From: Bdellovibrionales bacterium
GTDB lineage: Bacteria; Bdellovibrionota; Bdellovibrionia; Bdellovibrionales; UBA1609
DNA: 32,000 nucleotides
NCBI GenBank assembly: GCA_965247685.1
Contig: OZ252021.1
Coordinates: 870,001-902,000, forward strand
Direction of reading: 5' to 3'
Shown piece by piece: positions 1,405 to 21,500 of the stretch (its first letter is position 1; every line of letters begins with the position of its first letter). The notes under the pieces are model-generated. The model ran no database searches, was not told the DNA's origin, and was given only the letters and a program-made list of their open reading frames with translations. The position numbers were made by a program, and so were the translations under genes.

Positions 1405-2916
<1,512 letters not shown>

Positions 2917-3100: not shown

Positions 3101-3670
3101 ATGAAGACTCTAAATAAATTTTTATTTTCTATTTTTTATCTTTCAATTATATTTTTGCTCACGAATTGTGCTTCCTCAGAAGATTGGAGAGATGCTTCGA
3201 GAGCATCTGCTAACATTGCTCCACTTCCTCAAGAAACAAAAGATGCTATTGTGCATGTGTATGCTGCAGCATTGTGGGGAATTAGAGGTCGTTTTGCGGA
3301 TCACACATGGATTGCTACAAAAAAAACTGGAGCTTCTAGTTATAAAGTCTACGAGGCAGTAGGTTGGAATAAAGACCGAGGAAAGAATGCTTTGAGTGTT
3401 TTGTATGATATACCGGATAGGCTGTGGTATGGGAATCAACCAAAACTTCTCTTTAAGTTGGAAGGTAAAGAAGCAGAACCTGTTGTGGACAGAATAGAAG
3501 AGCTGGCAAAGAGGTATCCTTACAAATCGGAATACACTATATTCCCTGGACCTAATAGTAATACTTTTACAGCTTGGATGATTTGTCAGATTCCGGAACT
3601 CGATCTGAAACTTTCTAAGAGAGCTATTGGTAAGAATTATTTAGAAGATTGTGAATTTTCCAAAAGGTAG
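3101..3670 (+). CDS. exported/lipoprotein, DUF3750-like
   Basis: ATG preceded by AAGGAAG. Signal peptide with Cys: ...IFLLTNCAS. The motifs DWRDASRASANIAP, VHVYAA..WG.RG.FA.HTWIA.K, WYGN.P and FPGPNSNTFTAW...IPEL......AIGKNYL match my recollection of the DUF3750 family. Confidence 0.6.
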   Translation: MKTLNKFLFSIFYLSIIFLLTNCASSEDWRDASRASANIAPLPQETKDAIVHVYAAALWGIRGRFADHTWIATKKTGASSYKVYEAVGWNKDRGKNALSVLYDIPDRLWYGNQPKLLFKLEGKEAEPVVDRIEELAKRYPYKSEYTIFPGPNSNTFTAWMICQIPELDLKLSKRAIGKNYLEDCEFSKR

Positions 3671-3709
3671 TTTTTTTGAAAGAAGTTCTCAAAAAGAGGA
3701 ATAAGGTCA

Positions 3710-4489
3710 ATGAAATATATTATTATATTGTTTTTGTGGATATGTTTATCTTGTGCTTCTCAAACGTCGCCTGATTCTCAAACGTCGGCTCATAAAGATG
3801 CAGAAGCTCAAGAAGTGAATCCAGAAGAAAAAGAAAAGGCCTCTTCTACTCAGAGTTCAAAAGATTCCTCTTCTTCACAAAAAACTTTTGTTGTCCCTTT
3901 TCAATCTGATCAGTGGCATTCTTTAGAGTATAGCTCCATTCCTTCTCATGAAGTTACATTTGCATCCGATCATATTCAAATTAAAGTACGAAGTTCAGCT
4001 TCTCCTTTGATTTATCCTATGAAGGATAACCCGCTCCTTGTGAAGCAAGTTTCTATAAAAGGAGTTGTGAGTCAGTTACTCAATATCTCACCTGCTGAAA
4101 AGCAAGGGGAGAAAGGGCTCGATGATTTTAATTTAAGAGTAGGTTTAGTTTTGCTAGGTGCAAAACGACTGGAGTGGTATCAAAAGCTTACGGCTGCAGA
4201 CTGGATTAAGCAAATGTTTGCACTAGCACCAAAAGATCAAGGTATTGATCATGTATATTTTCTTAATGGTGTTTTATCTCCTTCTTTAGTTAATAAAAAA
4301 CGCACACACCCATTATCCAAATATATTAAAGAACATTATGTTTGGTTGATGAATCAATCAGGAGTTTTTGATTATACCTATACTCTTGAGCAGCCTCGAA
4401 AGACGGTTGCCTTATGGATATCTGTAGATGGAGATGATACAGGCTCTAACTTCGACCTTAAAATCAATAATATCACCCTCTTTAAGTAA
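3710..4489 (+). CDS. lipoprotein of unknown function (faint DUF3047-like pattern, tentative)
   Basis: ATG preceded by AGAGGAA. Lipobox LWICLSCAS, followed by a low-complexity S/E/K linker and a globular C-terminal part. The central ...RSSASPL... motif is reminiscent of DUF3047, but I cannot verify this. Confidence 0.7.
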   Translation: MKYIIILFLWICLSCASQTSPDSQTSAHKDAEAQEVNPEEKEKASSTQSSKDSSSSQKTFVVPFQSDQWHSLEYSSIPSHEVTFASDHIQIKVRSSASPLIYPMKDNPLLVKQVSIKGVVSQLLNISPAEKQGEKGLDDFNLRVGLVLLGAKRLEWYQKLTAADWIKQMFALAPKDQGIDHVYFLNGVLSPSLVNKKRTHPLSKYIKEHYVWLMNQSGVFDYTYTLEQPRKTVALWISVDGDDTGSNFDLKINNITLFK

Positions 4490-4579: not shown

Positions 4580-4656
<77 letters not shown>

Positions 4657-5017: not shown

Positions 5018-6043
5018 ATGAAGTTTCTATTTATTGTTTTTGGTTTAATATTTATTTTTCAGACGTTCGCAGAGGGGCAGACTTCTGGCTCGGATACAAT
5101 GTTGAAGAAAGAGACTTTAGAATCTGAGGAGGAGTCGAAGGAATCTAAAGAAAAGACTGTAGAACCTGGAGAGGAGTCTGAAGAAGAAGTTTTGATGAGA
5201 TTTCTAATGGAAGAAGTTATTCCTGCATTTGGGGGATTTCAGGATTTATTTTTTTCAAATAAACCTTCTTTTGATATTCATTGGACGCCCCAAGGAATGC
5301 AAGTAAGAAATTGTTCCTTTAAATTTCAGCTCAAACAACTTAGAGCAGTACAATACAATCTGGCAGATATAAAACTTTATGGATTTCATTCGAATGCGGA
5401 AATTGGTGATCCTGGGTTTTTGTTTGTTCAAATGTCTTGTGGTGAAGCAGGGTATGTTGAAAATAAAATCCATTTTAATATTAAATTTTTTGTTACAGAT
5501 GAGGAGCTTACTCCTGCTTATTATAGTTTAAAAATTAAAACAATGGATAAAGAACAATTGGATATCAAATTGAAGTCTATTGACATGGATGTAGATATTG
5601 AAACTGCTGATTTTACTTTGATATTGGACCAATATGGTCATACTAAAATTCTACCTCATGAATCTCCTTTTTTAAAATTTTTTGATGAAGAAAAAGCTTA
5701 TATGGAGATTGTTGAAGATGATGGAGAAGATGAATCGAATGGAGATGATAAAGATAATGAGGAAGATGAACAGATTAAAAATATGTATGACATTCCTATA
5801 TCTATTTGGAATCAAATCAATGAAGTAGATAAAGTGTCTTCCGATGAAAATTCTCTAGTTCCTTTGAAAAAGGTCGCTGTGGAACAAACTATTCATTTAA
5901 AGGGTTCTGTCGAGATGTTTTTACCTATTTATAAAGGTGGGGTGAAGGAATACAATCGTGTTGTTGTTCCTATTGTTGGACGTATTTTTTCTCCTGTAAA
6001 AGGTGAAGTTATTCCAATTATTGATATATCTACAAGAAAATGA
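5018..6043 (+). CDS. secreted protein of unknown function (acidic tracts)
   Basis: ATG preceded by AAGGGTG. Signal peptide MKFLFIVFGLIFIFQTFAEG. It contains E/D-rich stretches such as EDDGEDESNGDDKDNEEDE. I recognise no family motif. Confidence 0.75.
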   Translation: MKFLFIVFGLIFIFQTFAEGQTSGSDTMLKKETLESEEESKESKEKTVEPGEESEEEVLMRFLMEEVIPAFGGFQDLFFSNKPSFDIHWTPQGMQVRNCSFKFQLKQLRAVQYNLADIKLYGFHSNAEIGDPGFLFVQMSCGEAGYVENKIHFNIKFFVTDEELTPAYYSLKIKTMDKEQLDIKLKSIDMDVDIETADFTLILDQYGHTKILPHESPFLKFFDEEKAYMEIVEDDGEDESNGDDKDNEEDEQIKNMYDIPISIWNQINEVDKVSSDENSLVPLKKVAVEQTIHLKGSVEMFLPIYKGGVKEYNRVVVPIVGRIFSPVKGEVIPIIDISTRK

Positions 6044-6795
6044 AATATTTAAGTTTTTTAATCTTTTTGTTTTTATTGACTGGAAAAGTGGAGAGTCAGT
6101 TATTGTCGTCTGAAGATTCTTCGTTGGATCCAAAAGTTTCATCTGAAATTTATGATAAACCTTCTATATATAGGTATTTATTGGAGCCTTTACTTTCCTT
6201 AGATGAAGCATGGGGTGATACAGTGACCCATTGTAGTGTTTTAGGAGAAGACTTATCTCAGGTGATTCAAATTTATGATGGCTTAGGATCTTGTATTTTT
6301 GAACAGGTTGATTTGTTTTCAGATGAAGAAGAAATTCAGAAAAATATTATTTTTCACATACAAGTAAAGAGTCGGTTATTTGATTTGTTGTTTCAGTGGA
6401 CAGATTTAAGTGTTCAGGACATATTTAATTCTTATTTAGAAAATAATCCTCACAAACTATCCAGCCAAATAACTCTTGAGTTACTTGGTGATGAGCAGTC
6501 TCTTTTTGATGATTTATCTTATTTTGTCTTATCTGAGATGTTTAAAACATCTCTTTCTAAAGATGAGCATAACCTTCAAAATGCATCTCCATTGTTATTG
6601 CAGAAAAAAATTGATACCATTCATCTGAATGTTGTTCCCTATGCAGATGGATTATTAAAAGTGACTTTGAGTTTTTTTGATTCACAGGATGTAGAGTTTT
6701 ATAAGTTAGGAGTTATTACTAATTATTATATTGGTGCAGATGAGTTTTTTGTGACTTCTATAGATCAATACCTAGAGGAAAAGAATGAAGAGTAG
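6040..6795 (+). CDS. secreted protein of unknown function
   Basis: The start shares an ATGA overlap with the upstream stop. Signal peptide MKYLSFLIFLFLLTGKVESQ. No recognisable motif. Confidence 0.75.
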   Translation: MKYLSFLIFLFLLTGKVESQLLSSEDSSLDPKVSSEIYDKPSIYRYLLEPLLSLDEAWGDTVTHCSVLGEDLSQVIQIYDGLGSCIFEQVDLFSDEEEIQKNIIFHIQVKSRLFDLLFQWTDLSVQDIFNSYLENNPHKLSSQITLELLGDEQSLFDDLSYFVLSEMFKTSLSKDEHNLQNASPLLLQKKIDTIHLNVVPYADGLLKVTLSFFDSQDVEFYKLGVITNYYIGADEFFVTSIDQYLEEKNEE

Positions 6796-7978
6796 AATTT
6801 ATATTCTATTATTTTTTTATCCCTCTTTTTTATTTGCTGGAGAATTTTGTAAATTACAGCCTGAGGATTTTGATGAAGATGCCAGGAGTTCTCTTTCGGT
6901 TTTTGAGGAGAATATTGAGAATAAGGTCTCTGATATTTATCGTACTCAATACCCGCATGTAATTAAAAAATTAAAAACTCTTGAAGAGTTGCAAAATAAG
7001 TTAACAAGAATTGAAAATCAGTATAGTCAAAAATACATCAGATCTCCAAATAGACATCCAAGGAATCGTGCGGTGGATCGTTTAAGCAAAAGAAGAAGAA
7101 AAAAGTTATTTTTGAAATTAGCAGAACAAAATATTCATTCTGAATCAGATTTGAGTGATTACTTGAAAAAAATAAAAGTGATTCGTCCTATGTCTTTTGA
7201 CGTATATCAGGATTATTCAAATACAGTGAATGATTTAAAGTCACAAATTGAGGAAGTGAATACGTTGTTATTGGAAATACAATCCTTTGGGTTTCTACAG
7301 TTCCCAGATTTTGGTTTCTCATTAAGAGGAGATAAATTTTATGGACATTTTAAAATGGAAGGATTGTTTCGTGTACCAAAAGATGATTTGTTAAGATTGC
7401 CTTTTTTAAAAATTGGTTTTGAAACAAGTCCTAATACGGTAATCTATTCTTGTGTTCATCTAGATGAGTTTAAACCAGATAACAATCGTATTTATATTTA
7501 CTTTTTAAATACAACAAAACTTGATATTTTGCGTAGGACAGATTTTATAATGCGTCCGATTTCGTCTATTCGTAATTTGTTAGGGCTTAGCCAAGAGCCT
7601 CAAGCTGTCATTTCTCATTTGCCTTTTGTATTGAATTCTGCAGCTGGTGAGGTTTCCGAGACGTTGAGTAACTTGGGTCAAGTTCAGCAGATTGGCAATC
7701 ATCCTTCTTTTAATCAAATTATGGATGAAGTTGGTAGATTAAAAATTTTGAATTTTGCAGCAAATCTTAATCCTATTCTTGCAGTGATTAATGATAATGT
7801 GCAGATCGGTGTTCAGGGCTTTGTTATTCATCCGGACAAACTGCAAATTCGATATGCTGGAACAACCTTATATGGTTTTATTAATTTTAATTTACCTACT
7901 CAAAATCAGAGTGTGGATTTTTCATCTTTTATGAATATTATAACTCTGGACTTAAATAGTGACAATGTTGATCTTTAG
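6785..7978 (+). CDS. secreted protein of unknown function with a strongly basic patch
   Basis: The start overlaps the upstream gene by 11 nt. Signal peptide MKSRIYILLFFYPSFLFAGE. Basic segment RSPNRHPRNRAVDRLSKRRRKK. No recognisable family motif. Confidence 0.75.
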   Translation: MKSRIYILLFFYPSFLFAGEFCKLQPEDFDEDARSSLSVFEENIENKVSDIYRTQYPHVIKKLKTLEELQNKLTRIENQYSQKYIRSPNRHPRNRAVDRLSKRRRKKLFLKLAEQNIHSESDLSDYLKKIKVIRPMSFDVYQDYSNTVNDLKSQIEEVNTLLLEIQSFGFLQFPDFGFSLRGDKFYGHFKMEGLFRVPKDDLLRLPFLKIGFETSPNTVIYSCVHLDEFKPDNNRIYIYFLNTTKLDILRRTDFIMRPISSIRNLLGLSQEPQAVISHLPFVLNSAAGEVSETLSNLGQVQQIGNHPSFNQIMDEVGRLKILNFAANLNPILAVINDNVQIGVQGFVIHPDKLQIRYAGTTLYGFINFNLPTQNQSVDFSSFMNIITLDLNSDNVDL

Positions 7979-8045: not shown

Positions 8046-8177
8046 CAGCTTCCATGAATTAATTATTTTTATAATCCTTCAAAAACAGGTGCACCATGCA
8101 AAAACTAACCAAAAAAAGAGAACAATAAGTAACAAATTAGGATTAATAATCTCTACACAGGTCACTGTCAGGCTATA

Positions 8178-8199
8178 CTTCTTTTCTGCAGCAAAGAAG
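8178..8199 (-). terminator. conserved 3' hairpin of repeat-protein cassette 1 (possible terminator or stability element)
   Basis: cttcttt-tctgcagc-aaagaag: 7-bp stem and 8-nt loop, with no U tract. The same stem recurs at 9208-9229 and 11927-11948 with different loop bases. Confidence 0.3.
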
Positions 8200-8243
8200 A
8201 CTTTTATAAACTTTATACAATTAGTTGGGTTGTGACTTTTTTT

Positions 8244-9041
8244 TTAAAGCGAGAAAATAGGATTTTGTAAACTGTATTTTTCTAACATATTCTTCATTTT
8301 TTGTTTTCCCCATTCTTTTTCTTTCTGTTTAAGTTGATTGGGTGTGACTTTTGAAAAACCTTGGAGATCTTTTCTCATCTTGTCTTTGACTGCATTTTTT
8401 CCGATAAGGTCTTCTATAAATTGAACTATTTTTTTTAGTTCACTGAGATTGATTCTTGAAAAAGCTTGGAGATTTTTCTTCATTATTTCTCTGGTAGCCT
8501 CTTTTTCGATGTAGTTTTCTATAAATTGAACTACTTTTTTTAGTTCGCTGAGATTGGCTCTTGAAAAACCTTGGAGATCTTTTTCTATCCTTTCTCTGGT
8601 AGCCTCTTCTCCAATGTAGTCTTTTATAAATTGAATATTATCTTTTATATTCTTCACTGAGTTTTTATGAAAACCGCTCAAGGATTTTTTTAAACGTTCG
8701 TTCACCCCCTCTTTTTCTATATAATTCTCATAGAGCTTGACTCTTTCCAAAAAATTCTTAAATCGAAAGAGTTTAAAATAAGAGACTGCTCGGATTCTTT
8801 TTAAAGTTTCCTCTTCTCCGATTCGATTGATTAAAAAATTGAGGAATTCTTTCATTTCAGGTTCATCCCAAGACTTTGTAGTTTCTGTTACCTTAGTTTT
8901 CCAATTTTTAGGCATCTCAGAATTGAAGTTTTTTCCTATTTGATTTTTTGCAAACTGAATAAAGACATGCTCACATTTACCTTGAGCAAAAGAGTTAAGA
9001 GCAAAAAGTAAAGTAAATATATGTATGCGAAAAGAATGCAT
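8244..9041 (-). CDS. secreted 35-residue tandem-repeat protein, short paralog (5 repeats)
   Basis: The ORF runs 8244-9056 (270 aa). The second ATG (9039-9041) lies 8 nt after GGGAG, whereas the first ATG has no SD. Signal peptide MHSFRIHIFTLLFALNSFAQG. The body is made of 35-aa units such as NLSELKKVVQFIENYIEKEATREIMKKNLQAFS. The N- and C-terminal parts are near-identical to the 830-aa paralog. Confidence 0.85.
   Translation of the reverse strand: MHSFRIHIFTLLFALNSFAQGKCEHVFIQFAKNQIGKNFNSEMPKNWKTKVTETTKSWDEPEMKEFLNFLINRIGEEETLKRIRAVSYFKLFRFKNFLERVKLYENYIEKEGVNERLKKSLSGFHKNSVKNIKDNIQFIKDYIGEEATRERIEKDLQGFSRANLSELKKVVQFIENYIEKEATREIMKKNLQAFSRINLSELKKIVQFIEDLIGKNAVKDKMRKDLQGFSKVTPNQLKQKEKEWGKQKMKNMLEKYSLQNPIFSL
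8352..8666 (-). repeat. 3 canonical in-frame 105-bp (35-codon) repeats inside the 270-aa CDS
   Basis: Residues 131-235 of the ORF. The 'F-S' dipeptide recurs at residues 164-165, 199-200 and 234-235. Confidence 0.85.
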
Positions 9042-9097
9042 ATTTTTAACTCCCATTAATGAAGGGCCATTTGAAGGAAGTTAGAACATTTTAGCGT

Positions 9098-9127
9098 ATT
9101 AAAGTCTACATATTTTTTCATTGTAAA
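9098..9127 (-). promoter_or_regulatory. candidate promoter of cassette 1 (minus strand TTTACA-18 nt-TTTAAT)
   Basis: The reverse complement reads gaTTTACAatgaaaaaatatgtagacTTTAATacgc. The identical elements and spacing recur upstream of cassette 2 (11808-11837). Confidence 0.45.
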
Positions 9128-9207
9128 TCATATATGTGGTTTAAGTTTTTTGTAATTCTTAATAAGAGGCTATTTATTGCCTGAGAACAGGTCACTGTCA
9201 GGCTATA

Positions 9208-9229
9208 CTTCTTTTCTGCCGCAAAGAAG
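9208..9229 (-). terminator. conserved 3' hairpin of repeat-protein cassette 2
   Basis: cttcttt-tctgccgc-aaagaag: the same stem as at 8178-8199, with a loop that differs by one base. Confidence 0.3.
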
Positions 9230-9273
9230 ATTTTTATAAATTTTACAAAAGTAGTTGGATTTTAATCTTGTTT

Positions 9274-11751
9274 TTAAAGCAAGAAAACAGAATTTCGTAA
9301 ATTGTATTTTTCTAACATATCCTTCATTTTTTGTTTTCCCCATTCTTTTTCTTTTTCTTTAAGTTGATTGAGTGTAACTTCTAAAAAGCTTCCAAGATCT
9401 ATTTTTATTTTCTCTTTGACTGCCTCTTCTTCGATGTAGATTTCTATGTACTTAACTACTTGTTTTAATTCATTGAGTTTAGCGTCTGAAAACCCTCGAA
9501 GACCTTTCCTTATTTTCTCTCTGACTACATCTTCTTCGATGTAGATTTCTATAAATTGAACTACTTTTTTTAGTTCGCTGAGTTTAGTATTTAAAAAAGA
9601 TCGGAGATCTTTCTTCATTATCTTTCTGGTAGCCTCTTTTCCGGTATAGCTTTCTATATACTTAATTACTTGTTTTAATTCATTGAATTTAGCATATGAA
9701 AAAGCTTGAAGATTTTCCTTCATCATTTTTATTGTTGCCTCTTTTCCAATATAATTTTCTATATGCTTAATTACTTGTTTTAATTCATTGAGATTGGCAA
9801 TTGAAAAAGATCGGAGATCTTTTTTCATTATCTCTCTGGGTGCCTCTTCTTCAATGTAGCTTTTTATAAATTGAACTACTTTTTCTAGTTCACTGAGATT
9901 GGCTCTTGAAAAAGATCGGAGATCTTTCTTCATTATTTTTATTGTTGCCTCTTTTCCGAGATAGTTTTCAATATACTTAACTACTTTTTCTAGTTTGATG
10001 AGTTTGGCTATTGAGAAACTTTCAAGATTTTGTTTCATTATTTCTTTGATTGCCTCTTTTCCGATATAGTTTTCTATAAATTGAACTACTTTTTCTAGTT
10101 CGCTGAGTTTAGCATATGAAAGAGCTTGAAGATTTTTTTGTATTATTTTTATTGTTGCCTCTTTTCCGATATAGTTTTCTATAAATTGAATTACTTTTTC
10201 TAGTTCGTTGAGGTTGGCTATTGAAAAACCTTTGAGATTTTGTTTCATTCTTTCTTTGGTTGCCTCTTTTCCGATATAGTTTTCTATAAATTGAACTGCT
10301 TTTTCTAGTTTGCTGAGTTTAGCCCTTGAAAAAGCTTGAAGATTTTTTTTCATTATTTTTATTGTAGCCTCTTTTCCGATATAGTTTTCTATATACTTAA
10401 TTACTTGTTTTAATTCATTGAGTTTGACATATGAAAAAGCTTGAAGATCTTTTTTCATTCTTTCTTTGATTGCCTCTTTTCCGATATAGTTTTCTATATA
10501 CTTAATTACTTGTTTTAATTCATTGAGTTTGACATATGAAAAAGATCGGAGATCTTTTTTTATTATTTCTCTGGTAGCCTCTATTCCGATATAGTTTCCT
10601 ATATACATAATTATTTTTTTTAATTCATTGAGATTGGCGTCTGAAAATCCTCGAATACTTCTCCTTATTCTCTCTCTGATTGCCTCTTCTTCGATGTAGA
10701 TTTCTATAAATTGAACTGCTTTTTCTAGTTCGCTGAGATTGGCATTTGCAAAAGATCGGAGATCTTTTTTCATTCTTTCTTTGGTTGCATTTTTTCCGAT
10801 ATAGCTTTCTATATACTTAACTACTTTTTCTAGTTTGCTGAGTTTGGCTATTGAGAAACCTTCAAGATTTTGTTTCATTATTTCTTTGGTTGCCTCTTTT
10901 CCGAGATAGTTTTCTATAAATTGAACTACTTTTTCTAGTTCGCTGAGTTTAGCCTTTGCAAAAGCTTGAAGATCTTTTTTCATTCTTTCTTTGGTTGCCT
11001 CTTTTCCGATATAGTTTTCTATAAATGGAACTACTTTTTTTAGTTCGTTGAGGTTGGTTCTTGAAAAAGCTTGGAGATCTTTTTTCATCCTGTCTTTGAC
11101 TGCCTCTTCTCCGATGTAGTTTTTTATAAATTGAACTACTTTTTTTAGTTCACTGAGATTGGTATTTGAAAAAGCTTGAATATTTTTCTTCATTATTTCT
11201 CTGGTAGCTTCTTTTCCGAGATAGTTTTCTATAAATTGAACTACTTTTTTTAGTTCTCTGAGATTGGCTATTGAAAAACCTTGGAGATCTTTTTTTATCC
11301 TTTCTCTGGTAGCCTCTTCTCCGATGTAGTTTTCTATAAATTGAATATTATTTTTTATATTCTCCACTGAGTTTTTATGAAAACCGCTCAAAGATTTTTT
11401 TAAACGTTCGTTCACTCCATCTCTTTCTATATAATTCTCATAGAGATTGACTCTTTCCAAAAAATTCTCAAATCGAAAGGATTTAAAATAAGAAACTGCT
11501 CGGATTCTTTTTAAAGTTTCCTCTTCTCCGATTCGATTGATTAAAAAATTGAGGAATTCTTTCATTTCAGGTTTATCCCAAGACTTTGTAGTTTCTGTTA
11601 CCTTAGTTTTCCAATTTTTAGGCATCTCAGAATTGAAGTTTTTTCCTATTTTATTTTCTGCAAATTGAATAAATACATGCTCACATTTACCTTGAGTAAA
11701 AGAGTTAAGAGCAAAAAGTAAAGTAAATATATGTATGCGAAAAAAACGCAT
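9274..11751 (-). CDS. secreted 35-residue tandem-repeat protein, long paralog (21 repeats)
   Basis: The ORF runs 9274-11766 (830 aa). The SD-supported second ATG is at 11749-11751. Signal peptide MRFFRIHIFTLLFALNSFTQG. The F-[SAL] dipeptide recurs every 35 residues without any indel from residue 164 to 795. It is 560 aa longer than the 270-aa paralog, which is exactly 16 x 35. Confidence 0.9.
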   Translation of the reverse strand: MRFFRIHIFTLLFALNSFTQGKCEHVFIQFAENKIGKNFNSEMPKNWKTKVTETTKSWDKPEMKEFLNFLINRIGEEETLKRIRAVSYFKSFRFENFLERVNLYENYIERDGVNERLKKSLSGFHKNSVENIKNNIQFIENYIGEEATRERIKKDLQGFSIANLRELKKVVQFIENYLGKEATREIMKKNIQAFSNTNLSELKKVVQFIKNYIGEEAVKDRMKKDLQAFSRTNLNELKKVVPFIENYIGKEATKERMKKDLQAFAKAKLSELEKVVQFIENYLGKEATKEIMKQNLEGFSIAKLSKLEKVVKYIESYIGKNATKERMKKDLRSFANANLSELEKAVQFIEIYIEEEAIRERIRRSIRGFSDANLNELKKIIMYIGNYIGIEATREIIKKDLRSFSYVKLNELKQVIKYIENYIGKEAIKERMKKDLQAFSYVKLNELKQVIKYIENYIGKEATIKIMKKNLQAFSRAKLSKLEKAVQFIENYIGKEATKERMKQNLKGFSIANLNELEKVIQFIENYIGKEATIKIIQKNLQALSYAKLSELEKVVQFIENYIGKEAIKEIMKQNLESFSIAKLIKLEKVVKYIENYLGKEATIKIMKKDLRSFSRANLSELEKVVQFIKSYIEEEAPREIMKKDLRSFSIANLNELKQVIKHIENYIGKEATIKMMKENLQAFSYAKFNELKQVIKYIESYTGKEATRKIMKKDLRSFLNTKLSELKKVVQFIEIYIEEDVVREKIRKGLRGFSDAKLNELKQVVKYIEIYIEEEAVKEKIKIDLGSFLEVTLNQLKEKEKEWGKQKMKDMLEKYNLRNSVFLL
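9382..11376 (-). repeat. 19 canonical in-frame tandem 105-bp repeats (1995 bp) inside the 830-aa CDS
   Basis: Residues 131-795. Consensus roughly x-A-[NK]-L-[SN]-E-L-[EK]-K-V-V-Q-F-I-E-N-Y-I-G-K-E-A-T-[KR]-E-[IR]-M-K-K-[DN]-L-[QR]-[AS]-F-S. Confidence 0.95.
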
Positions 11752-11807
11752 GTTTTTAACTCCCATTAATGAAGGGCCATTTAAAGGAAGTTAGAGCATT
11801 GTAGCAT

Positions 11808-11837
11808 ATTAAAGTCTACATATTTTTTAATTGTAAA
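11808..11837 (-). promoter_or_regulatory. candidate promoter of cassette 2 (TTTACA-18 nt-TTTAAT)
   Basis: Same hexamers and spacing as at 9098-9127, within an upstream region of about 130 nt that is duplicated with the gene. Confidence 0.45.
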
Positions 11838-11926
11838 TTATATATGTGATTTAAGTTGTTTTAAGTTTTTTGTAATTCTTAATAAAAGGCTATTTATTGC
11901 CTGAGAACAGGTCCTGTCAAGCTATA

Positions 11927-11948
11927 CTTCTTTTCTGCAACAAAGAAG
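11927..11948 (-). terminator. conserved 3' hairpin of repeat-protein cassette 3
   Basis: cttcttt-tctgcaac-aaagaag: the stem is retained and the loop again differs. Confidence 0.3.
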
Positions 11949-11961
11949 ATTTTTATAAACT

Positions 11962-12492
11962 TTACAAAAGTAGTTGGATTTTAACTTTGTTTTTTAAAGC
12001 AAGAAAATAGAATTTCGTAAATTGTATTTTTCTACCATAATCCTTTATTTTTTGTTTTCTCCATTCTTTTTCTTTTTCTTTAAGTTGATTGAGTGTAACT
12101 TCTAAAAAGCTTCCAAGATCTATTTTTATTTTCTCTTTGACTGCCTCTTCTTCGATGTAGATTTCTATAAATTGAACTACTTTTTCTAGTTCACTGAGAT
12201 TGGCTCTTGAAAAAGATCGGAGATCTTTCTTCATTATTTCTCTGGTAGCCTCTTTTCCAATTCGACTGATTAAAAAATTGAGAAATTTTTTCATTTCAGA
12301 TCCATCCCAAGAATTTGTAGCTTTTGCTACCTTAGTTTCCCAATTTTTGGGCATCTTAGAACTGAAGTTTTTTCCTATTTTATTTTCTGCAAATTGAATA
12401 AATACATGTTTACATTTACCTTGAGCAAAAGAGTTAAAAAAAAGTAAAGTAAATATATGTATGCAAAAAGAATACGTATTTTGAATTCCCAT
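11962..12492 (-). CDS. degenerate short paralog of the 35-residue-repeat protein (2 repeats; possible pseudogene)
   Basis: The 176-aa ORF has the same N-terminal module and the same last repeat as the 830-aa gene. Three defects are visible. The SD-linked internal ATG is ACG here. A 1-nt indel near the 3' end reads through the ancestral stop (...KDYGRKIQFTKFYFLALKNKVKIQLLL versus ...KDMLEKYNLRNSVFLL). The conserved promoter hexamers are absent upstream. Confidence 0.6.
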   Translation of the reverse strand: MGIQNTYSFCIHIFTLLFFNSFAQGKCKHVFIQFAENKIGKNFSSKMPKNWETKVAKATNSWDGSEMKKFLNFLISRIGKEATREIMKKDLRSFSRANLSELEKVVQFIEIYIEEEAVKEKIKIDLGSFLEVTLNQLKEKEKEWRKQKIKDYGRKIQFTKFYFLALKNKVKIQLLL

Positions 12493-12796
12493 TAATGAAG
12501 GACTATTTAAAGAGAGTTAAGGCATTGTAGTATGTTTCAATGAACGAATGATGTATTTGTCAGTGTTTCATTTTTTAGTAGTTTGATATTGTTTTATTTT
12601 AAAACTTTATTTTTGATTCTTTAGCTAAATTTTCTTTATAATTGGCTCACTTAAACGCTTAAGATATGATTGTATTTTGCTCTGAGATAACTTATGTACT
12701 TAATTAAACTATATTTTATGTTAGATATAAATATAAAGTTGTTAAATTTTTTAAATAATGTTAAATGTTAAGAACAATGAATCAGATTGAAACAAT

Positions 12797-13291: not shown

Positions 13292-13986
13292 TTTGTGTTG
13301 CTAATTGGAAAATGAATCATAATCTGGAAACAGCTCAAGATTTTTTGATGCAATTTAAAGATCAGATTGAAAAAAAAGATCAAAATTCTTTTATTTTTTT
13401 AGCACCAGCTCTTTTGTTTTCTGTTGTTAGTCAAGAACTTCAAGGTACAGATATTCAATGGGGAGGGCAAAATTGTTTCTTAAAAAAATCTGGAGCTTTT
13501 ACAGGAGAAAATTCACCAGCATTGATGCACGAAATGGGGGCAACTCACTGTCTTGTTGGGCATAGTGAGAGACGTTTATTGTTTGGTGAAAATCAAGATA
13601 TGATTGTAAAAAAAGTAGAATCTATTATTGAAAATAAAATGACTCCTATTCTTTGTGTGGGTGAGCAAAGGCAAAGTGATCAATGGAAAGAAGTTATAAA
13701 ATCTCAATTGAATGGTCTGCTTTCAATTCCGTCACTCATGATCGCTTACGAGCCTATATGGGCTGTTGGATCTAAAAATTCTGCTTGTGTGGAGCAAGTT
13801 CAAGAAGTCATAAATTATATTCTTCAAATGGTGTCTTCTCCAGTTCCAATTTTATATGGGGGAAGTGTGAGTGTATCTACTGCAAAAGAATGGAAATCTG
13901 CTCAAAACCTAAGTGGATTCCTGATAGGGAGAGCTTCTTTGCAAGTGGATTCTCTGCTCTCTATTTACAAACAGATCTATTCTTGA
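13288..13986 (+). CDS. tpiA: triose-phosphate isomerase
   Basis: The ATG at 13288 forms an ATGA overlap with the ogt stop. Motifs present: ANWKMN, VGHSERR, AYEPIWAVGS, YGGSV. The track ORF from 13156 is only an upstream in-frame extension overlapping ogt. Confidence 0.92.
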   Translation: MICVANWKMNHNLETAQDFLMQFKDQIEKKDQNSFIFLAPALLFSVVSQELQGTDIQWGGQNCFLKKSGAFTGENSPALMHEMGATHCLVGHSERRLLFGENQDMIVKKVESIIENKMTPILCVGEQRQSDQWKEVIKSQLNGLLSIPSLMIAYEPIWAVGSKNSACVEQVQEVINYILQMVSSPVPILYGGSVSVSTAKEWKSAQNLSGFLIGRASLQVDSLLSIYKQIYS

Positions 13987-15140
13987 GAAAACGGTTTATA
14001 TTTATAAAAAGTTAGGACTCCTTCTTCTAATTTGGTATTTTTAACGTCACTGTTTCTTTCGATTGAAGATTTATACATTTCCATAAATAGTAAAGTGCTA
14101 CTTTTTGTTTCTGCATCCATATGAACAGGTTCAACAATGTTGTAGTGTTCCCACAACAAGTAAGGAGTATAATTTGAATCGACAATACAATGAGTAAGAA
14201 TACTAGTGTTGAGTTTATTGTATATCTTAACCCATAACGATAAAAGCTGTAGGTTGTGCATGATATTAGGGAACTGCTCAAGAGATTTCATTTTGTCATC
14301 TTGGTACATATGGTCCATTAGTGTTTGAAGAAATGGAACTTTCATTTGAGACCAGTGATTCAAGTAAGATATTTCTGTATTATCAGATTTGATTTCTTGT
14401 AGTGTATATAGAAAGTATAAAAAATTCATCAACTCAGGTTCTTGTTGACTTAAATAAGTGTCCACTCGTTTTTGCAATATATCAAAAAAAGGTAAAAGGA
14501 TATGTTGAGAATCATCTGTGGATTGGCACAGAGCTTGGCTTCTTTCTGTTAAAAAAGTATATACTGTACCCTTGAGATTGACCCCATTGAATTCGAAATT
14601 ACTGTTCTGAACAGGAAATGATGAATGCTTTTGGTAAGGCGGGACTAGATTATGTACGAAAAACGGCTGAGTTCCCGTTGTCTGAATGAGTAGATCTTTC
14701 ATAAGTGTTTGTTCTGTGATTTTTTCTAATTGATTCAAAGATGGTTGAGAAATATTTTCAGAAATAAATTGTGTCAATGACAAGAAAGCCTTCCATACAT
14801 TTAAATTATTGATTTTTAAATTACCTTTGTGGTTGAGGGTGAGGTTTTTCAGGACAGTTGAATATAAAATATATTGATCGGCAATAGGACTTTCACATTG
14901 AGAAGAGTATTTTATAAATTGTCGAATATACTCCATCGGCTGAACAGGTTGTTTAATGTTATTCACAAATTTTTCTAATTCTAAACAGTAACTGATGTTT
15001 TGAGTGCTTTTTGTAGACTTTGTTGAATGAGAGGGAAGAGTTTCTACAACATCTGTATTCATTTTTTCTTCAGCTTGCAACAAGGGAGAGACCCATAAAC
15101 ATATTGCTAATAGAACAAGTTTACATCGATTGCTTTTCAT
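13977..15140 (-). CDS. exported protein of unknown function
   Basis: ATG preceded by GGAGG about 10 nt upstream. Signal peptide MKSNRCKLVLLAICLWVSPLLQAEE. The start lies 20 nt inside the 3' end of the kamA-family gene. No recognisable motif. Confidence 0.75.
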   Translation of the reverse strand: MKSNRCKLVLLAICLWVSPLLQAEEKMNTDVVETLPSHSTKSTKSTQNISYCLELEKFVNNIKQPVQPMEYIRQFIKYSSQCESPIADQYILYSTVLKNLTLNHKGNLKINNLNVWKAFLSLTQFISENISQPSLNQLEKITEQTLMKDLLIQTTGTQPFFVHNLVPPYQKHSSFPVQNSNFEFNGVNLKGTVYTFLTERSQALCQSTDDSQHILLPFFDILQKRVDTYLSQQEPELMNFLYFLYTLQEIKSDNTEISYLNHWSQMKVPFLQTLMDHMYQDDKMKSLEQFPNIMHNLQLLSLWVKIYNKLNTSILTHCIVDSNYTPYLLWEHYNIVEPVHMDAETKSSTLLFMEMYKSSIERNSDVKNTKLEEGVLTFYKYKPFSQE

Positions 15141-18540: not shown

Positions 18541-21500
18541 ATGAATAGACTTGTGTTTTTGATCAAAATCTTGTTTATAGAGTCAGAAATGATGCAGATA
18601 TTATATAAAACTTTTTATTTTATCTTTTTGTGTGCCACGGGGTTGTCTTGTACATTAGAGCTCCCTCTTCAATTTTCTCCTAATAGTGATAAGCAAGATC
18701 AAGTTTTTTCCATTGAAGATATCCATCAGTTGGAATGTGGTATTCGAACTTTATCTGCTTTTGAAGAGAACAGCTTGGAGATTTCAGCCCAGCATTTAGT
18801 GATTGAGGCTAATCAACCGCCTTCGGTAGTTTTTCCTTCAGAGTCTTCTCTCGCGCCGCCTATTATTAACAATTTACCGTTTGTTCAGTATCAAGTGGAG
18901 GGTTCGTCCGTCTGCGAATTATTACTTGCTCAAAAAACAATTCGTCTGATAGCTCAGCCGAATGAATATTATAAAGTTCATTTTCAAATTGTGGGTTCTT
19001 ATTTAAGAGTGTTTATATCTGGAGATCTTCATCGTCTTCCTTATCAATGGCTTTCTCAAAGAGTAGTGATGAAAAATGGTCAGTATGCACTACCTATTGG
19101 AGTTTATTCTATTCTTCAAGGTCGTGTACAACCAATGAAAAATGTAGAAAATGAAGAAATCCACATTTTAGATTTTTTCCCCAACGAAGAACCTTTGGTT
19201 CGATTTGAAGATTCAAAAGGGCTGGTGCATTGGGTGCGTTCGGAGTCTCAAGATATTTTTATTGTCGATTTGAATAAAGGGCTGACTTCTTATCAATACC
19301 AAGAGAAGAAAAATATTTTACCTAAAAATTATTTTGATGGCGAGTGGTACTCTCAGGTGAGTTTACATTTAACAGAACCATTAAAGTCGCAAGGGGGATG
19401 GGGCTCTGGTGTAAGTGTCTCTGGTAACAACTATTCTGGAAAAATGTTGGGGCAAAAAATATACTTTAAATTTGAATTCCAAAATTTAAAGGCCCTAAAT
19501 TATAACTATGCCCATCAAACTCAATCTTTGAACTTAGGTGCAGAGGCTGAAGCTTTATCCATTCCTATTGAGCATTTGGACTATCGCAATGTTATAAATA
19601 AAAACGAGGATGTGTCTCAAGAAAAGCTGGACAAGTATACTTCATGGCAAGACAAGAAATATATTTCTGCTCATTTTGATAAAGTATCTGACTTTTTTAG
19701 AGATTGGGTGAAAAGAGTAGGGGTTCGATATGGCTATGACTTGTCTGATACGACGACTTTGAAAGAAATTCGTTTTGCTTCAAACTATTTTGACTTTGTA
19801 GTTTATGATGGGACTTTTGAATATCGCTTTTCTTTCTTCAAAAAAGAAAAAGATTCTCACTATAAACCTAAAACTATAGCTGCCACAGATTTAAGGTTTG
19901 AGTTTTTTAATGTTCCTTATAATCAAGTTTTTTCTTCACCTTTAGACTCTTTTAATCGAGAGTATGAGGAAAAAATTAATCTTCTAAGACCTCAGCCTGA
20001 CAAAGATGGTAATATTCATATTCACTTTTCTCGTTTGACTCCAAAGAACGATAAAACTCGAAGTATTGGTCGTGAAGCAGTTTTCGTTTGGAATCAAGCT
20101 TTAGAAAAGGCAAGTCTTCCCTTAAAACTTGTATTGCATGAAGATAAGGATGTGAACCTTGGAGACAGTCGATATCATGTACTCCATATACCTGAGGAGC
20201 TGAAAAAAGCTTATGGAGGAATTGCTCAAACACTGGTGGATGACGAAACGGGTGAGGTGATTTCTTCAACTTCCACAGTTCTTTTAGATGATTATAAATT
20301 TTTTCTAGAGAAAAAAATTATTGATTATGTATACACCAAGTATAGTTTGATTAATTCTATAACGAGTCCCTTTGTTGATTATCCAAAAATAAAGAATAAT
20401 CGTTTTGCACATAGTTTTTCTCAAGAAAAGCTTCCTTTTTCCGTAGATACTTTAGAATATGTGTGGGTTCAACATACCATGAACCAGCATCAAAGTGTGA
20501 TTTTCCCTCGTTCTGTAAAGAATTCTTGGTACGATAGTATTCTTCAATATTTCGAATTTAAAAAAGATGTGCGAAAGAATTGGCTGCAAACACTTTCTAA
20601 TCCTACCATCTCAGACATTAGTCACTTACCTCCGGAACTGAAAGCGTGGTGGAATGATTTTAAACTGCAGTACGCTTTAATACATCAAAAGTTTGTGGAA
20701 GAGGAAAACTGGAATACTATTCTAGAAAATGTTCGGCAATGGGGAGCAACGAGTGAATATCGTTCAATAGCTTCTAGTAATTTACATCAAACCTTGTCTA
20801 AAGTGTGTCACTTCCTTCCTCATCCTCTCCAACAAGAAAAAGATGTTTTTAAAACAGCAGTTCGACAATGTGTCGAAGCTATTCTTCCTATATATGGTTT
20901 AGGAATAGCTGTTCATGAAATAGGGCATTCCATTTTTTCTCTTCGTCATAATTTTGCAGGAAGTACAGATGCTCATAATATTAAAAACTCCCCCTCTTAT
21001 CAATTGAAGCATCTTAAGTCTTATCTTTCTTACACTGATTCAAAAGGTCAAAAAACTTCTCTTGAAGATCAATTTAATCCTGTATCCTCTTCTGTCATGG
21101 AATATATTGCTGTTGCAGATGGAGATCAGTGGGGACCAGGTTCTTATGATATTGCAGCGATTGAATATTTATTCGCTGACTTTGGTGTTTCGTCCAAAGA
21201 GTCTGTTGAAAAAGATTCTGTTGAAAAATTTTCCAATCATTTTGAAAGATGCTCGGATTATGAAGTTAATACTTCTGCTTATTGTCTCACTCACGACAAA
21301 GGTGTGACTCCTCTGGAAATTACAAGAAATGAAGTACGCAATTTATTAGAATACTTGAATCAAAACTTTTATGATCTCGAATATTCGGTATCACCTCTTA
21401 AATATCATTTCACTTTATTCCGCCAGATTAAAAAGTTAGTGGTAATTTACAGTGACTGGAGGGCGAAGCTACGTAATCTATCTGTTCAATTTTTGAATGA

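What the first reader, a model, noticed from the sequence alone, without database searches (positions are those of the whole stretch)
8157..12545. Tandem array of three self-contained cassettes encoding an unrecognised family of secreted 35-residue-repeat proteins (5, 21 and 2 repeats)
**What repeats.** Three adjacent minus-strand genes share the following:
- a nearly identical signal peptide and about 60-aa N-terminal module (…GKCEHVFIQFAENKIGKNFNSEMPKNWKTKVTETTKSWD);
- a body made entirely of tandem 35-aa units;
- a conserved 35-aa C-terminal cap (…LNQLKEKEKEWGKQKMKDMLEKY…).

The 5' flank (with TTTACA-18-TTTAAT) and the 3' flank (with a hairpin) are duplicated together with the gene. Each copy is therefore an autonomous expression cassette.

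**Copy-number variation.** The 830-aa and 270-aa proteins differ by exactly 560 aa, which is 16 x 35. This indicates in-register expansion or contraction of the repeats.

**Novelty.** The unit (predicted helix, G-K-E turn, helix) does not match TPR, Sel1, ankyrin, HEAT, PPR, TALE or mTERF consensus as far as I can judge by eye.

**Possible role.** A secreted, length-variable solenoid family with independent promoters is what a contingency, surface-variation or effector locus would look like.
Basis: partly seen in the sequence, partly recalled or inferred. Interest (0 to 1): 0.88.

Follow-up and report, generated by a model that had tools for sequence, protein, structure and literature searches.

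The report
Secreted bacterial mTERF-like repeat protein genes
Three neighbouring genes in a small-genome Bdellovibrio-related bacterium encode exported, highly basic proteins made of 2, 5 and 21 copies of a 35-residue helical unit. The predicted fold is that of the mTERF nucleic-acid-binding proteins of mitochondria and chloroplasts, a family a recent survey reports as absent from bacteria.

Summary
Three tandem minus-strand genes (270, 830 and 176 aa) share a signal peptide, an N-terminal module, in-register 35-aa repeats (5, 21, 2) and a C-terminal cap. Their flanks are duplicated.

The claim that the family is unrecognised and not mTERF is only half right:
- A confident AlphaFold model (pLDDT 88) has three helices per repeat. 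All 12 top PDB fold matches are MTERF1, MTERF3, MTERF4 or mitoribosome structures.
- At least 227 homologue clusters exist. Of 90 scanned, 9 hit Pfam mTERF (best E 5e-23).
- A profile of the window's repeats aligns in register with those mTERF-positive motifs.
- The window proteins themselves hit no Pfam, NCBIfam or PDB family. No source names the family, and a 2026 survey reports mTERF absent from bacteria.

Most likely these are exported nucleic-acid-binding solenoids aimed at a host or prey. Supporting points are pI about 9.6, relatives fused to a nuclease-like domain, HRDC or ankyrin repeats, and hypervariable residues next to the position equivalent to MTERF1's groove-lining proline. This function is inferred, not shown.

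The 176-aa copy is deleted and frameshifted. Autonomous promoters and contingency variation are unsupported. Verdict: a new variant of a known kind.

The parts
8244..9056 (-). Gene 1: 270-aa exported mTERF-like protein. It has a signal peptide (about residues 1-25), an N-terminal module, 5 units of 35 aa (nt 8340-8864) and a 31-aa cap (8247-8339).
   Evidence: AlphaFold model pLDDT 88, pTM 0.78. Foldseek top hits are MTERF1, MTERF3 and MTERF4.
9274..11766 (-). Gene 2: 830-aa paralogue with 21 units of 35 aa (nt 9370-11574). Canonical units 3-21 lie at 9370-11364 and the cap at 9277-9369.
   Evidence: pI 9.5, net charge +42. BLASTP to the Pfam-mTERF-positive homologue P0092 gives E 1e-20.
11962..12492 (-). 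Gene 3: 176-aa degraded paralogue. The first half of unit 1 is fused in register to the second half of a canonical unit, followed by one more unit.
9057..9273 (-). Spacer between gene 2 and gene 1. It is duplicated with the gene, being about 90% identical to 11767-11961. It contains the hairpin CTTCTTT-N8-AAAGAAG (about 9208-9229) and the hexamer TAAAAT (9088-9093).
11767..11961 (-). Spacer between gene 3 and gene 2, the second copy of the duplicated spacer. Hairpin at about 11927-11948; TACAAT at 11798-11803.
8157..8243 (-). The 3' flank of gene 1. It is shared with the first 87 nt of the spacers and contains the hairpin (about 8178-8199).
   Evidence: fold z-score 0.13, not significant.
12493..12540 (-). 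The 5' flank of gene 3. Only this proximal stretch of about 48 nt is shared with the other copies; it includes TACAAT at 12524-12529.

Best explanation
**What it is (about 0.85 confidence).** The locus is a tandem triplication of a gene for a Sec-exported, basic, all-alpha solenoid built from mTERF-type motifs. Each motif is two alpha-helices plus a short third helix, with a period of 35 aa.

**How the array arose (largely read from the sequence).** The duplicated block ran from about 48 nt upstream to at least 87 nt downstream of the gene. Unequal recombination between 105-bp units then changed the unit number in register.
- Gene 1 corresponds to units 1-5 plus the cap of a gene-2-like copy.
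- Gene 3 is a deletion derivative that is also frameshifted and is probably decaying.

**How it works (inferred, about 0.5 confidence).**
- After Sec export and cleavage around SFA|QG, the protein leaves the cytoplasm.
- It then binds nucleic acid of a host or prey cell, or extracellular nucleic acid, along a positively charged superhelical surface. [quoted passage not shown]
- The number of units would set the footprint. MTERF1 covers 22 bp with 8 motifs.
- The exposed residues of the third helix (positions 28, 29 and 32) would tune what is bound. They lie next to position 27, which aligns with the groove-lining proline of mTERF motifs.
For: **Fold**
- The model has pLDDT 88 and pTM 0.78, with helices of about 14, 10 and 4-6 residues in each unit.
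- Of the 12 best Foldseek PDB matches, 11 are MTERF1, MTERF3 or MTERF4. The twelfth is a Tetrahymena mitoribosome chain.
- The first nine have probability 1.00, TM-score 0.45-0.58, 217-276 aligned columns and E-values from 5e-3 to 0.16.

**Homology**
- A profile search finds 227 representative proteins at E<1e-3 and 64 at E<1e-30.
- 9 of 90 scanned members hit Pfam PF02536 mTERF. Scores against a cut-off of 23.1 bits are P0092 81.9, P0043 64.6, P0115 49.2, P0103 41.4, P0151 31.9 and P0109 28.2.
- A profile of the P0092/P0115 motif hits human MTERF1 chains at E 1e-3.
- An HMM built only from the window's repeats scores P0092 at E 1.6e-16. It aligns in register with P0092's mTERF-positive motif at residues 638-675 (domain E 1e-3). 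Iterated, it finds 486 motifs in 144 of 148 family proteins, including those motifs.
- In that alignment KKN-L-QAFSR pairs with EKN-P-KPFSR. The close relative P0024 has both KNP and KNL at this position.

**Export**
- The N-terminus has a positively charged start, a hydrophobic stretch and an SFA/QG-type end, conserved across homologues.
- Residues 1-26 have pLDDT below 50.

**Nucleic-acid link**
- pI is 9.5-9.8, with net charge +16, +42 and +14 for the three proteins.
- Some family members are fused to the MTES_1575 restriction-endonuclease-like domain (2 members, E 2.8e-25), to HRDC (1 member, E 1e-47) or to ankyrin repeats.
- MTERF1's conserved prolines line the DNA major groove (PMC4705650).
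- The three most variable repeat positions (28, 29, 32) are the same in the window array and in the independently amplified 899-aa array of L003. The chance of this is 1 in 6545.

**Array history**.
Against: - The window proteins themselves give no mTERF hit at E<=10 in Pfam.
- Single-unit and multi-unit profile-profile comparisons with the mTERF-positive repeats are weak: probability 2-32% over only 11-18 columns.
- The family-wide motif profile seeded from the window does not reach MTERF chains in the PDB. Nor does the window-repeat profile.
- Foldseek E-values are marginal.
- A second, single-sequence model of units 3-12 was poor (pLDDT 70) and matched only generic helical repeats.
- The signature proline is replaced by leucine in the window's units.
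- A Sec signal takes a protein only to the periplasm. No dedicated delivery system, target nucleic acid, expression or host is known.
- Basic helical solenoids can also bind proteins or membranes.
Confidence: 0.5

Rival explanations
1. The proteins are exported protein-binding or envelope scaffolds. Like TPR, Sel1 or HEAT solenoids, they would act in the periplasm or on a host protein, and the mTERF-like fold would be reused without any nucleic-acid binding.
For: - The proteins are extracytoplasmic, where nucleic acid is scarce. No nucleic-acid-binding test exists.
- One relative is fused to ankyrin repeats, a protein-binding module.
- The lower-confidence model matches generic helical repeats.
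Against: - The best fold matches are specifically mTERF, not TPR or HEAT.
- Net positive charge is strong.
- Relatives are fused to nuclease-like and HRDC domains.
- Variable residues cluster next to the position equivalent to the groove-lining proline.
Confidence: 0.25
2. This is a contingency or antigenic-variation locus. Repeat number would switch frequently by slippage or recombination to vary an exposed surface protein.
For: - The paralogues differ by exact multiples of 35 aa.
- Exact direct repeats of up to 73 bp lie at a 105-bp offset, and units 7 and 15 are 97% identical. Both could support recombination.
- Orthologues in other genomes have 4, 5 or about 23 units.
Against: - Units average only 77% DNA identity.
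- No lipobox, sortase motif or beta-barrel anchor is visible.
- dN/dS between copies is 0.4-0.7, not above 1.
- No population-level length variants could be found. The collections searched hold only one contig with these genes.
Confidence: 0.1
3. The array is an assembly artefact, or a set of decaying pseudogenes with no function.
For: - Gene 3 is truncated in register and frameshifted.
- Repeat arrays are prone to misassembly.
- The 830-aa product is not on record as a called gene.
Against: - Genes 1 and 2 are intact ORFs.
- The units are diverged enough to assemble uniquely.
- The 830-aa ORF is uninterrupted over 2.5 kb in AT-rich DNA.
- Comparable 899-aa and 236-267-aa orthologues exist in independent assemblies.
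- dN/dS is below 1.
Confidence: 0.05

Closest known systems
mTERF family (human MTERF1, MTERF3 and MTERF4; plant mTERFs; Pfam PF02536)
   Same: - Tandem motifs of about 33-35 aa, each two helices plus a short third helix, form a superhelical solenoid.
- These are the best fold matches.
- Homologues with the same N-terminal module score above the Pfam mTERF threshold.
- The proteins are basic.
   Different: - These proteins are bacterial and carry a Sec signal peptide rather than an organelle transit peptide.
- The signature proline is replaced by leucine.
- The units are near-identical with a strict 35-aa period, up to 21-23 copies. Eukaryotic mTERFs have about 6-10 degenerate motifs.
- They have their own conserved N-terminal module and C-terminal cap.
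- The window proteins are not recognised by the Pfam model.
TALE and TALE-like effectors (AvrBs3; BurrH/Bat1 of Burkholderia rhizoxinica)
   Same: - Both are bacterial proteins with long arrays of near-identical 33-35-aa helical units, with variation concentrated at a few positions.
- Repeat numbers differ between paralogues.
- There are weak sequence echoes. The 830-aa protein hits NCBIfam AvrBs3 at E 7e-4. The P0092-type motif hits BurrH at a summed E of 2.6e-15, from 17 matches that are individually insignificant.
   Different: - The AvrBs3 score is 17.5 bits against a cut-off of 1000.
- No TALE appears among the fold matches.
- The unit has three helices rather than a two-helix hairpin with an RVD loop.
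- Export is through a Sec signal rather than a type III signal.
- No DNA code is known.
Pentatricopeptide repeat (PPR) proteins
   Same: - The period is 35 aa, the units are helical, and PPR proteins bind organellar RNA.
- There are weak sequence hits to designer PPR chains (E 2e-3 to 0.1).
   Different: - No Pfam PPR hit.
- No PPR structure among the fold matches.
- The unit has three helices, not two.

Membership tests
mTERF (PF02536 / SMART Mterf) | Tandem motifs of about 30-35 aa, each made of two alpha-helices followed by a short (3-10) helix | tested here: met
   DSSP on the pLDDT-88 model gives H134-148/H150-159/H162-165, H169-182/H185-194/H196-201 and H204-218/H220-229/H231-235 for units 3-5. 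The motif definition comes from PMC4705650.
mTERF (PF02536 / SMART Mterf) | Overall superhelical solenoid superposable on solved MTERF structures | tested here: met
mTERF (PF02536 / SMART Mterf) | Significant match of the protein itself to the family profile | tested here: not met
   No PF02536 hit at E<=10 for any of the three window proteins or for an idealised five-unit consensus. No MTERF chain is reached by the window-repeat profile or the family-motif profile.
mTERF (PF02536 / SMART Mterf) | Homology to proteins that do match the family profile (transitive link) | tested here: met
   9 of 90 homologues hit PF02536, best E 5.2e-23. An HMM built only from the window repeats scores P0092 at E 1.6e-16 and aligns in register with its mTERF-positive motifs. 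BLASTP gives E 1e-20.
mTERF (PF02536 / SMART Mterf) | Conserved proline capping the central helix (S-loop) | tested here: not met
   Position 27 is Leu in 17 of 19 canonical units and Ile in the other two. It aligns with Pro of the P0092 motifs. The relative P0024 has both KNP and KNL at this position.
mTERF (PF02536 / SMART Mterf) | Binds DNA or RNA | not testable with these tools
   Only indirect evidence: pI 9.5-9.8 and relatives fused to nuclease-like and HRDC domains.
mTERF (PF02536 / SMART Mterf) | Nuclear-encoded eukaryotic protein targeted to mitochondria or plastids | tested here: not met
   The genes sit in a bacterial genome, between a bacterial 16S rRNA gene and housekeeping genes, and carry a Sec-type signal peptide. 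The nearest named YchF relatives are from Bdellovibrionales.
TALE / TALE-like | 33-35-aa two-helix repeats with an RVD loop, and a match to the AvrBs3 or TALE profile | tested here: not met
   NCBIfam AvrBs3 scores 17.5 bits against a cut-off of 1000. No TALE appears among the fold matches.
PPR | 35-aa helical-hairpin repeats matching the PPR profiles | tested here: not met
   No Pfam PPR hit. Only weak hits to designer PPR chains, E 2e-3 or worse. The fold search does not return PPR structures.
Saposin B (PF05184 SapB_1) | Saposin fold held by three conserved disulfides | tested here: not met
   The Pfam score (67 bits) is the sum of nine 24-column partial matches. The mature protein has a single cysteine, and the fold is a solenoid. 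This is a false positive that public pipelines already carry: P0001 is tagged PF05184.

The most novel reading that the evidence does not exclude
The 35-aa units would form a modular recognition code. Each unit would read one or a few nucleotides through the exposed third-helix residues 28, 29 and 32, with position 22 toggling between Ile and Arg.

On this reading the proteins are naturally programmable DNA or RNA binders of the mTERF type. A reduced-genome Bdellovibrionota parasite would export them to act on a host organelle genome or a prey genome. This would be a third bacterial or organellar 'code' scaffold alongside TALE and PPR, and evidence that mTERF repeats are not confined to eukaryotes.
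Probability: 0.1. Interest if true: 0.9.

Novelty: new variant of a known kind. Interest (0 to 1): 0.62.

Why it matters
- **mTERF outside eukaryotes.** mTERF proteins are treated as a eukaryotic, organelle-specific invention. A 2026 HMM survey states that they are absent from bacterial genomes (PMC12977773). Here a bacterial family of at least 227 sequence clusters has the mTERF fold and, in part, the mTERF sequence signature. It carries export signals and is sometimes fused to nuclease-like or ankyrin domains. This bears on the origin of the family: a bacterial ancestor, or capture from a host.
- **A possible new effector class.** It suggests exported effectors that bind nucleic acid, in little-known small-genome relatives of Bdellovibrio.
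- **A regular scaffold.** The arrays of 21-23 regular units, with variation confined to three exposed positions, are the kind of architecture that made TALE and PPR proteins engineerable.
- **An annotation error.** Automated pipelines currently label these proteins saposin-like, which is wrong.

Tried and rejected
**Profile and sequence tests that did not link the window proteins to mTERF**
- Direct Pfam, NCBIfam, PADLOC and PHROG scans gave only summed partial matches, such as SapB_1, StiP, pAgo and head-tail adaptor. None had a significant stretch.
- Single-unit, two-unit and three-unit hhalign comparisons with the mTERF-positive repeats were underpowered.
- PDB sequence searches with the family profile, P0092, the window-repeat profile and the family-wide motif profile reached no MTERF chain.

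**False lead**
- The N-terminal module hit PDB 9HSA 'X55' at E 4.6e-5. That entry is a de novo designed protein (PMC12405559), so the hit is irrelevant.

**Structure work that added nothing**
- The second AlphaFold job (units 3-12, single sequence) gave pLDDT 70, and its fold search returned only generic solenoids.
- A self-alignment meant to serve as a pseudo-MSA was simply staggered by MAFFT.

**Searches for more loci**
- No relatives were found in viral contigs or JGI metagenome contigs.
- Exact look-ups of the window's own products found no record.

**Expression signals and literature**
- Promoter-like and terminator-like matches were not above chance.
- The fold energy of the hairpin regions was not significant in two of the three copies.
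- Literature searches for mTERF together with Bdellovibrio, Legionella, or secreted/signal peptide found nothing relevant.
Full report
**1.
- Three minus-strand ORFs lie at 8244-9056 (270 aa), 9274-11766 (830 aa) and 11962-12492 (176 aa).
- Cutting each protein every 35 residues from residue 65 keeps all units in register. The counts are 5, 21 and 2 units plus a 31-residue cap.
- Tandem Repeats Finder reports 105-bp arrays, with 18.8 copies at 79% matches in the long gene.
- Canonical units average 77% DNA identity, with a range of 64-97%. Units 7, 13 and 15 are 91-97% alike, which points to segmental duplication inside the array.
- Units 1-5 of the 270-aa gene are colinear with units 1-5 of the 830-aa gene, at 96% falling to 83% identity. 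The two genes therefore differ by an in-register gain or loss of 16 units.
- The two spacers are about 90% identical over about 200 nt. The 3' flank of gene 1 shares 87 nt with them, and the 5' flank of gene 3 shares only about 48 nt.
- No other copy lies in the window. Related genomes show single copies in the loci fetched.

**2. Gene 3 is a degraded copy.**
- The first half of unit 1 is fused in register to the second half of a canonical unit.
- A 1-nt insertion near 12039 replaces the conserved cap ending with an unrelated tail.
- dN/dS between copies is 0.4-0.7 on small counts. This suggests relaxed or fast evolution, not demonstrable positive selection.

**3. The expression signals are not established.**
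- Promoter-like and terminator-like matches in the region are not more frequent than in shuffled sequence.
- The conserved hairpin CUUCUUU-N8-AAAGAAG is AU-rich and lacks a U tract. Its region folds better than shuffles in only one of the three copies.
The TACAAT/TAAAAT hexamer about 32 nt before each ATG is the only shared promoter-like element.
- 'Autonomous cassette' is therefore an inference.

**4. What the proteins are: the fold.**
- Curated libraries do not recognise them.
- The Pfam SapB_1 score of 67 bits is the sum of nine partial matches. The mature protein has one cysteine, so it cannot be a saposin.
- An AlphaFold model of the 270-aa protein, built from a five-sequence alignment, is confident: pLDDT 88 and pTM 0.78. 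Only the signal peptide is disordered.
- Each canonical unit has helices of about 14, 10 and 4-6 residues, and the cap repeats that pattern.
- Foldseek against the PDB returns MTERF1, MTERF3 and MTERF4 as ranks 1-11, followed by a Tetrahymena mitoribosome chain. The first nine have probability 1.00, TM-score 0.45-0.58 and 217-276 aligned columns. Their E-values are modest, from 5e-3 to 0.16.
- PMC4705650 describes the mterf motif as 33 residues forming three short helices in a triangular arrangement.

**5. What the proteins are: the sequence link to mTERF is transitive.**
- A profile search of 1.84 billion representatives finds 227 proteins at E<1e-3 and 64 at E<1e-30.
- These share a conserved N-terminal module, roughly VFIxFAxxxLG...W...W...FLxFLxxRIG...SYF...YexYIGeeGV..RL..SL.GF, followed by variable numbers of helical motifs.
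- Nine of 90 scanned members hit Pfam PF02536 mTERF. Scores against a cut-off of 23.1 bits:

| Protein | Bits |
|---|---|
| P0092 | 81.9 |
| P0043 | 64.6 |
| P0115 | 49.2 |
| P0103 | 41.4 |
| P0151 | 31.9 |
| P0109 | 28.2 |

- A profile of the P0092/P0115 motif reaches human MTERF1 chains at E about 1e-3.
- An HMM built only from the window's repeats scores P0092 at E 1.6e-16. It aligns in register with a Pfam-positive motif at residues 638-675 (domain E 1e-3).
- After iteration within the family, that HMM finds 486 motifs in 144 of 148 proteins, including those motifs.
- In the alignment, the window's KKN-L-QAFSR pairs with EKN-P-KPFSR. Position 27 is thus the equivalent of the mTERF proline. 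The close relative P0024 carries both KNP and KNL at that position.

**6. Caveats on the mTERF assignment.**
- The window proteins themselves do not hit the Pfam model.
- Short profile-profile tests are weak.
- Profiles seeded from the window do not reach MTERF chains in the PDB.
- I therefore describe this as a divergent bacterial branch of the mTERF superfamily, not as a canonical member.

**7. Source organism.**
- The window carries a bacterial 16S rRNA gene with no 23S gene within 29 kb, ordinary housekeeping genes, and about 33% G+C.
- The YchF protein encoded in the window groups with proteins from a set of contigs of 1.08-1.60 Mb at 60-85% identity. The nearest named relatives, at about 53%, are from Bdellovibrionales, Pseudobdellovibrionaceae and Bdellovibrio MAGs.
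- An 899-aa orthologue lies in a MAG labelled Bdellovibrionales bacterium.
- Other family-bearing contigs encode several ankyrin-repeat proteins. Such proteins are typically enriched in bacteria that live with eukaryotic hosts (my own background knowledge, not checked here).

**8. Likely mechanism (inferred).**
- The proteins have a conserved Sec-type signal peptide.
- They are strongly basic: pI 9.5-9.8, and net charge +42 for the long protein.
- Some relatives are fused to a restriction-endonuclease-like MTES_1575 domain, an HRDC domain or ankyrin repeats.
- In MTERF1 the conserved prolines line the DNA major groove, and eight motifs cover 22 bp (PMC4705650).
- The three most variable positions of the unit (28, 29, 32) are the exposed residues of the third helix, right after the proline-equivalent position 27.
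- The same three positions are the most variable in the independently amplified L003 array. The chance of this is 1 in 6545.
- The best reading is an exported solenoid that binds nucleic acid of a host or prey. Unit number would set the footprint, and the third-helix residues would tune specificity.
- Nothing here shows binding, secretion beyond the periplasm, expression or a target.

**9. Rival explanations.**
- A protein-binding or envelope scaffold is the main rival (0.25).
- Contingency variation is weakly supported (0.1). The units are diverged, no anchor is visible and no population data exist.
- Artefact or pseudogene status applies at most to gene 3 (0.05).

**10. Novelty.**
- The literature searched contains no bacterial or secreted mTERF.
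- A 2026 survey reports mTERF absent from bacteria (PMC12977773).
- No source names any family member.
- The fold and repeat type are known. The bacterial, exported context is new, as are the dedicated N-terminal module and the highly regular 35-aa arrays.
- Rating: new variant of a known kind. Interest 0.62.

Noticed in passing
window 1405-2916, 3101-4489, 4580-4656: The rRNA operon is split. A complete 16S rRNA gene is followed by two protein genes (a DUF3750 protein and an unknown one), then tRNA-Ile(GAT). No 23S gene lies in the remaining 27 kb. This is typical of reduced genomes.
   Followed up: partly
repeat positions 28, 29, 32 (and 22) in window 9370-11364 and L003:9959-12658: The same three positions are the most variable in two independently amplified arrays. 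Position 22 toggles between Ile and Arg in both. They flank the invariant L27, F30 and S31 on the short third helix.
   Followed up: yes
family members P0007-P0152 (N-termini); window proteins at residues 27-31: Many homologues carry a conserved C-x-x-x-F-S motif just after the signal peptide, about 9 residues before the N-terminal module. The residue before the Cys varies (P, A, F, S, T, D, K), so it is not a standard lipobox. It is the only cysteine of the mature window proteins. Its role is unknown; sorting, lipidation or dimerisation are possibilities.
   Followed up: partly
L003:13816-16236: Next to the 899-aa orthologue lies an 806-aa protein with a signal peptide. By eye it has repeated segments resembling the helix-hairpin-helix C-terminal domain of RNA polymerase alpha (LEELNLGARIEGALESAGIRTAGDLTARTRAELLDVPGVG...). 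It may be another exported DNA-binding-like protein.
   Followed up: no
P0092/P0115 repeat motif versus PDB 4cj9/4cja (BurrH): The classical mTERF-type motif of some family members (L.eRGLSQeeIIeLiEkN) resembles the BurrH TALE-like repeat (LreRGFSQ.DIVKIAgNN). The summed E-value is 2.6e-15, from 17 matches that are individually insignificant. This could reflect a distant relationship or convergence between mTERF and TALE-like repeats.
   Followed up: no
L003:9959-12658: The 899-aa array shows a higher-order period of three units (105 aa). The triplet IEAVKEI..EGFSNA / KDAVKER..LAFSRA / IEVVKEI..QAFSNA recurs, which indicates amplification in blocks of three units.
   Followed up: no
window 5018-7978 and 13977-15140: The genes flanking the array encode proteins with no Pfam match (341, 251, 397 and 387 aa). 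At least two begin with signal-peptide-like N-termini (MKSRIYILLFFYPSFLFAGEFC..., MKSNRCKLVLLAICLWVSPLLQAEE...). The neighbourhood may be rich in exported proteins of unknown function.
   Followed up: no
window 18541-23961: An 1806-aa ORF has only a sub-threshold Met-zincin (DUF4953) match, at E 1.4e-4 and 21.6 bits against a cut-off of 24.2.
   Followed up: no
window 8244-9056 / P0001: The public gene call for gene 1 starts at Met6 (265 aa) and carries a precomputed PF05184 saposin tag. That tag is a false positive caused by summed partial repeat matches.
   Followed up: yes
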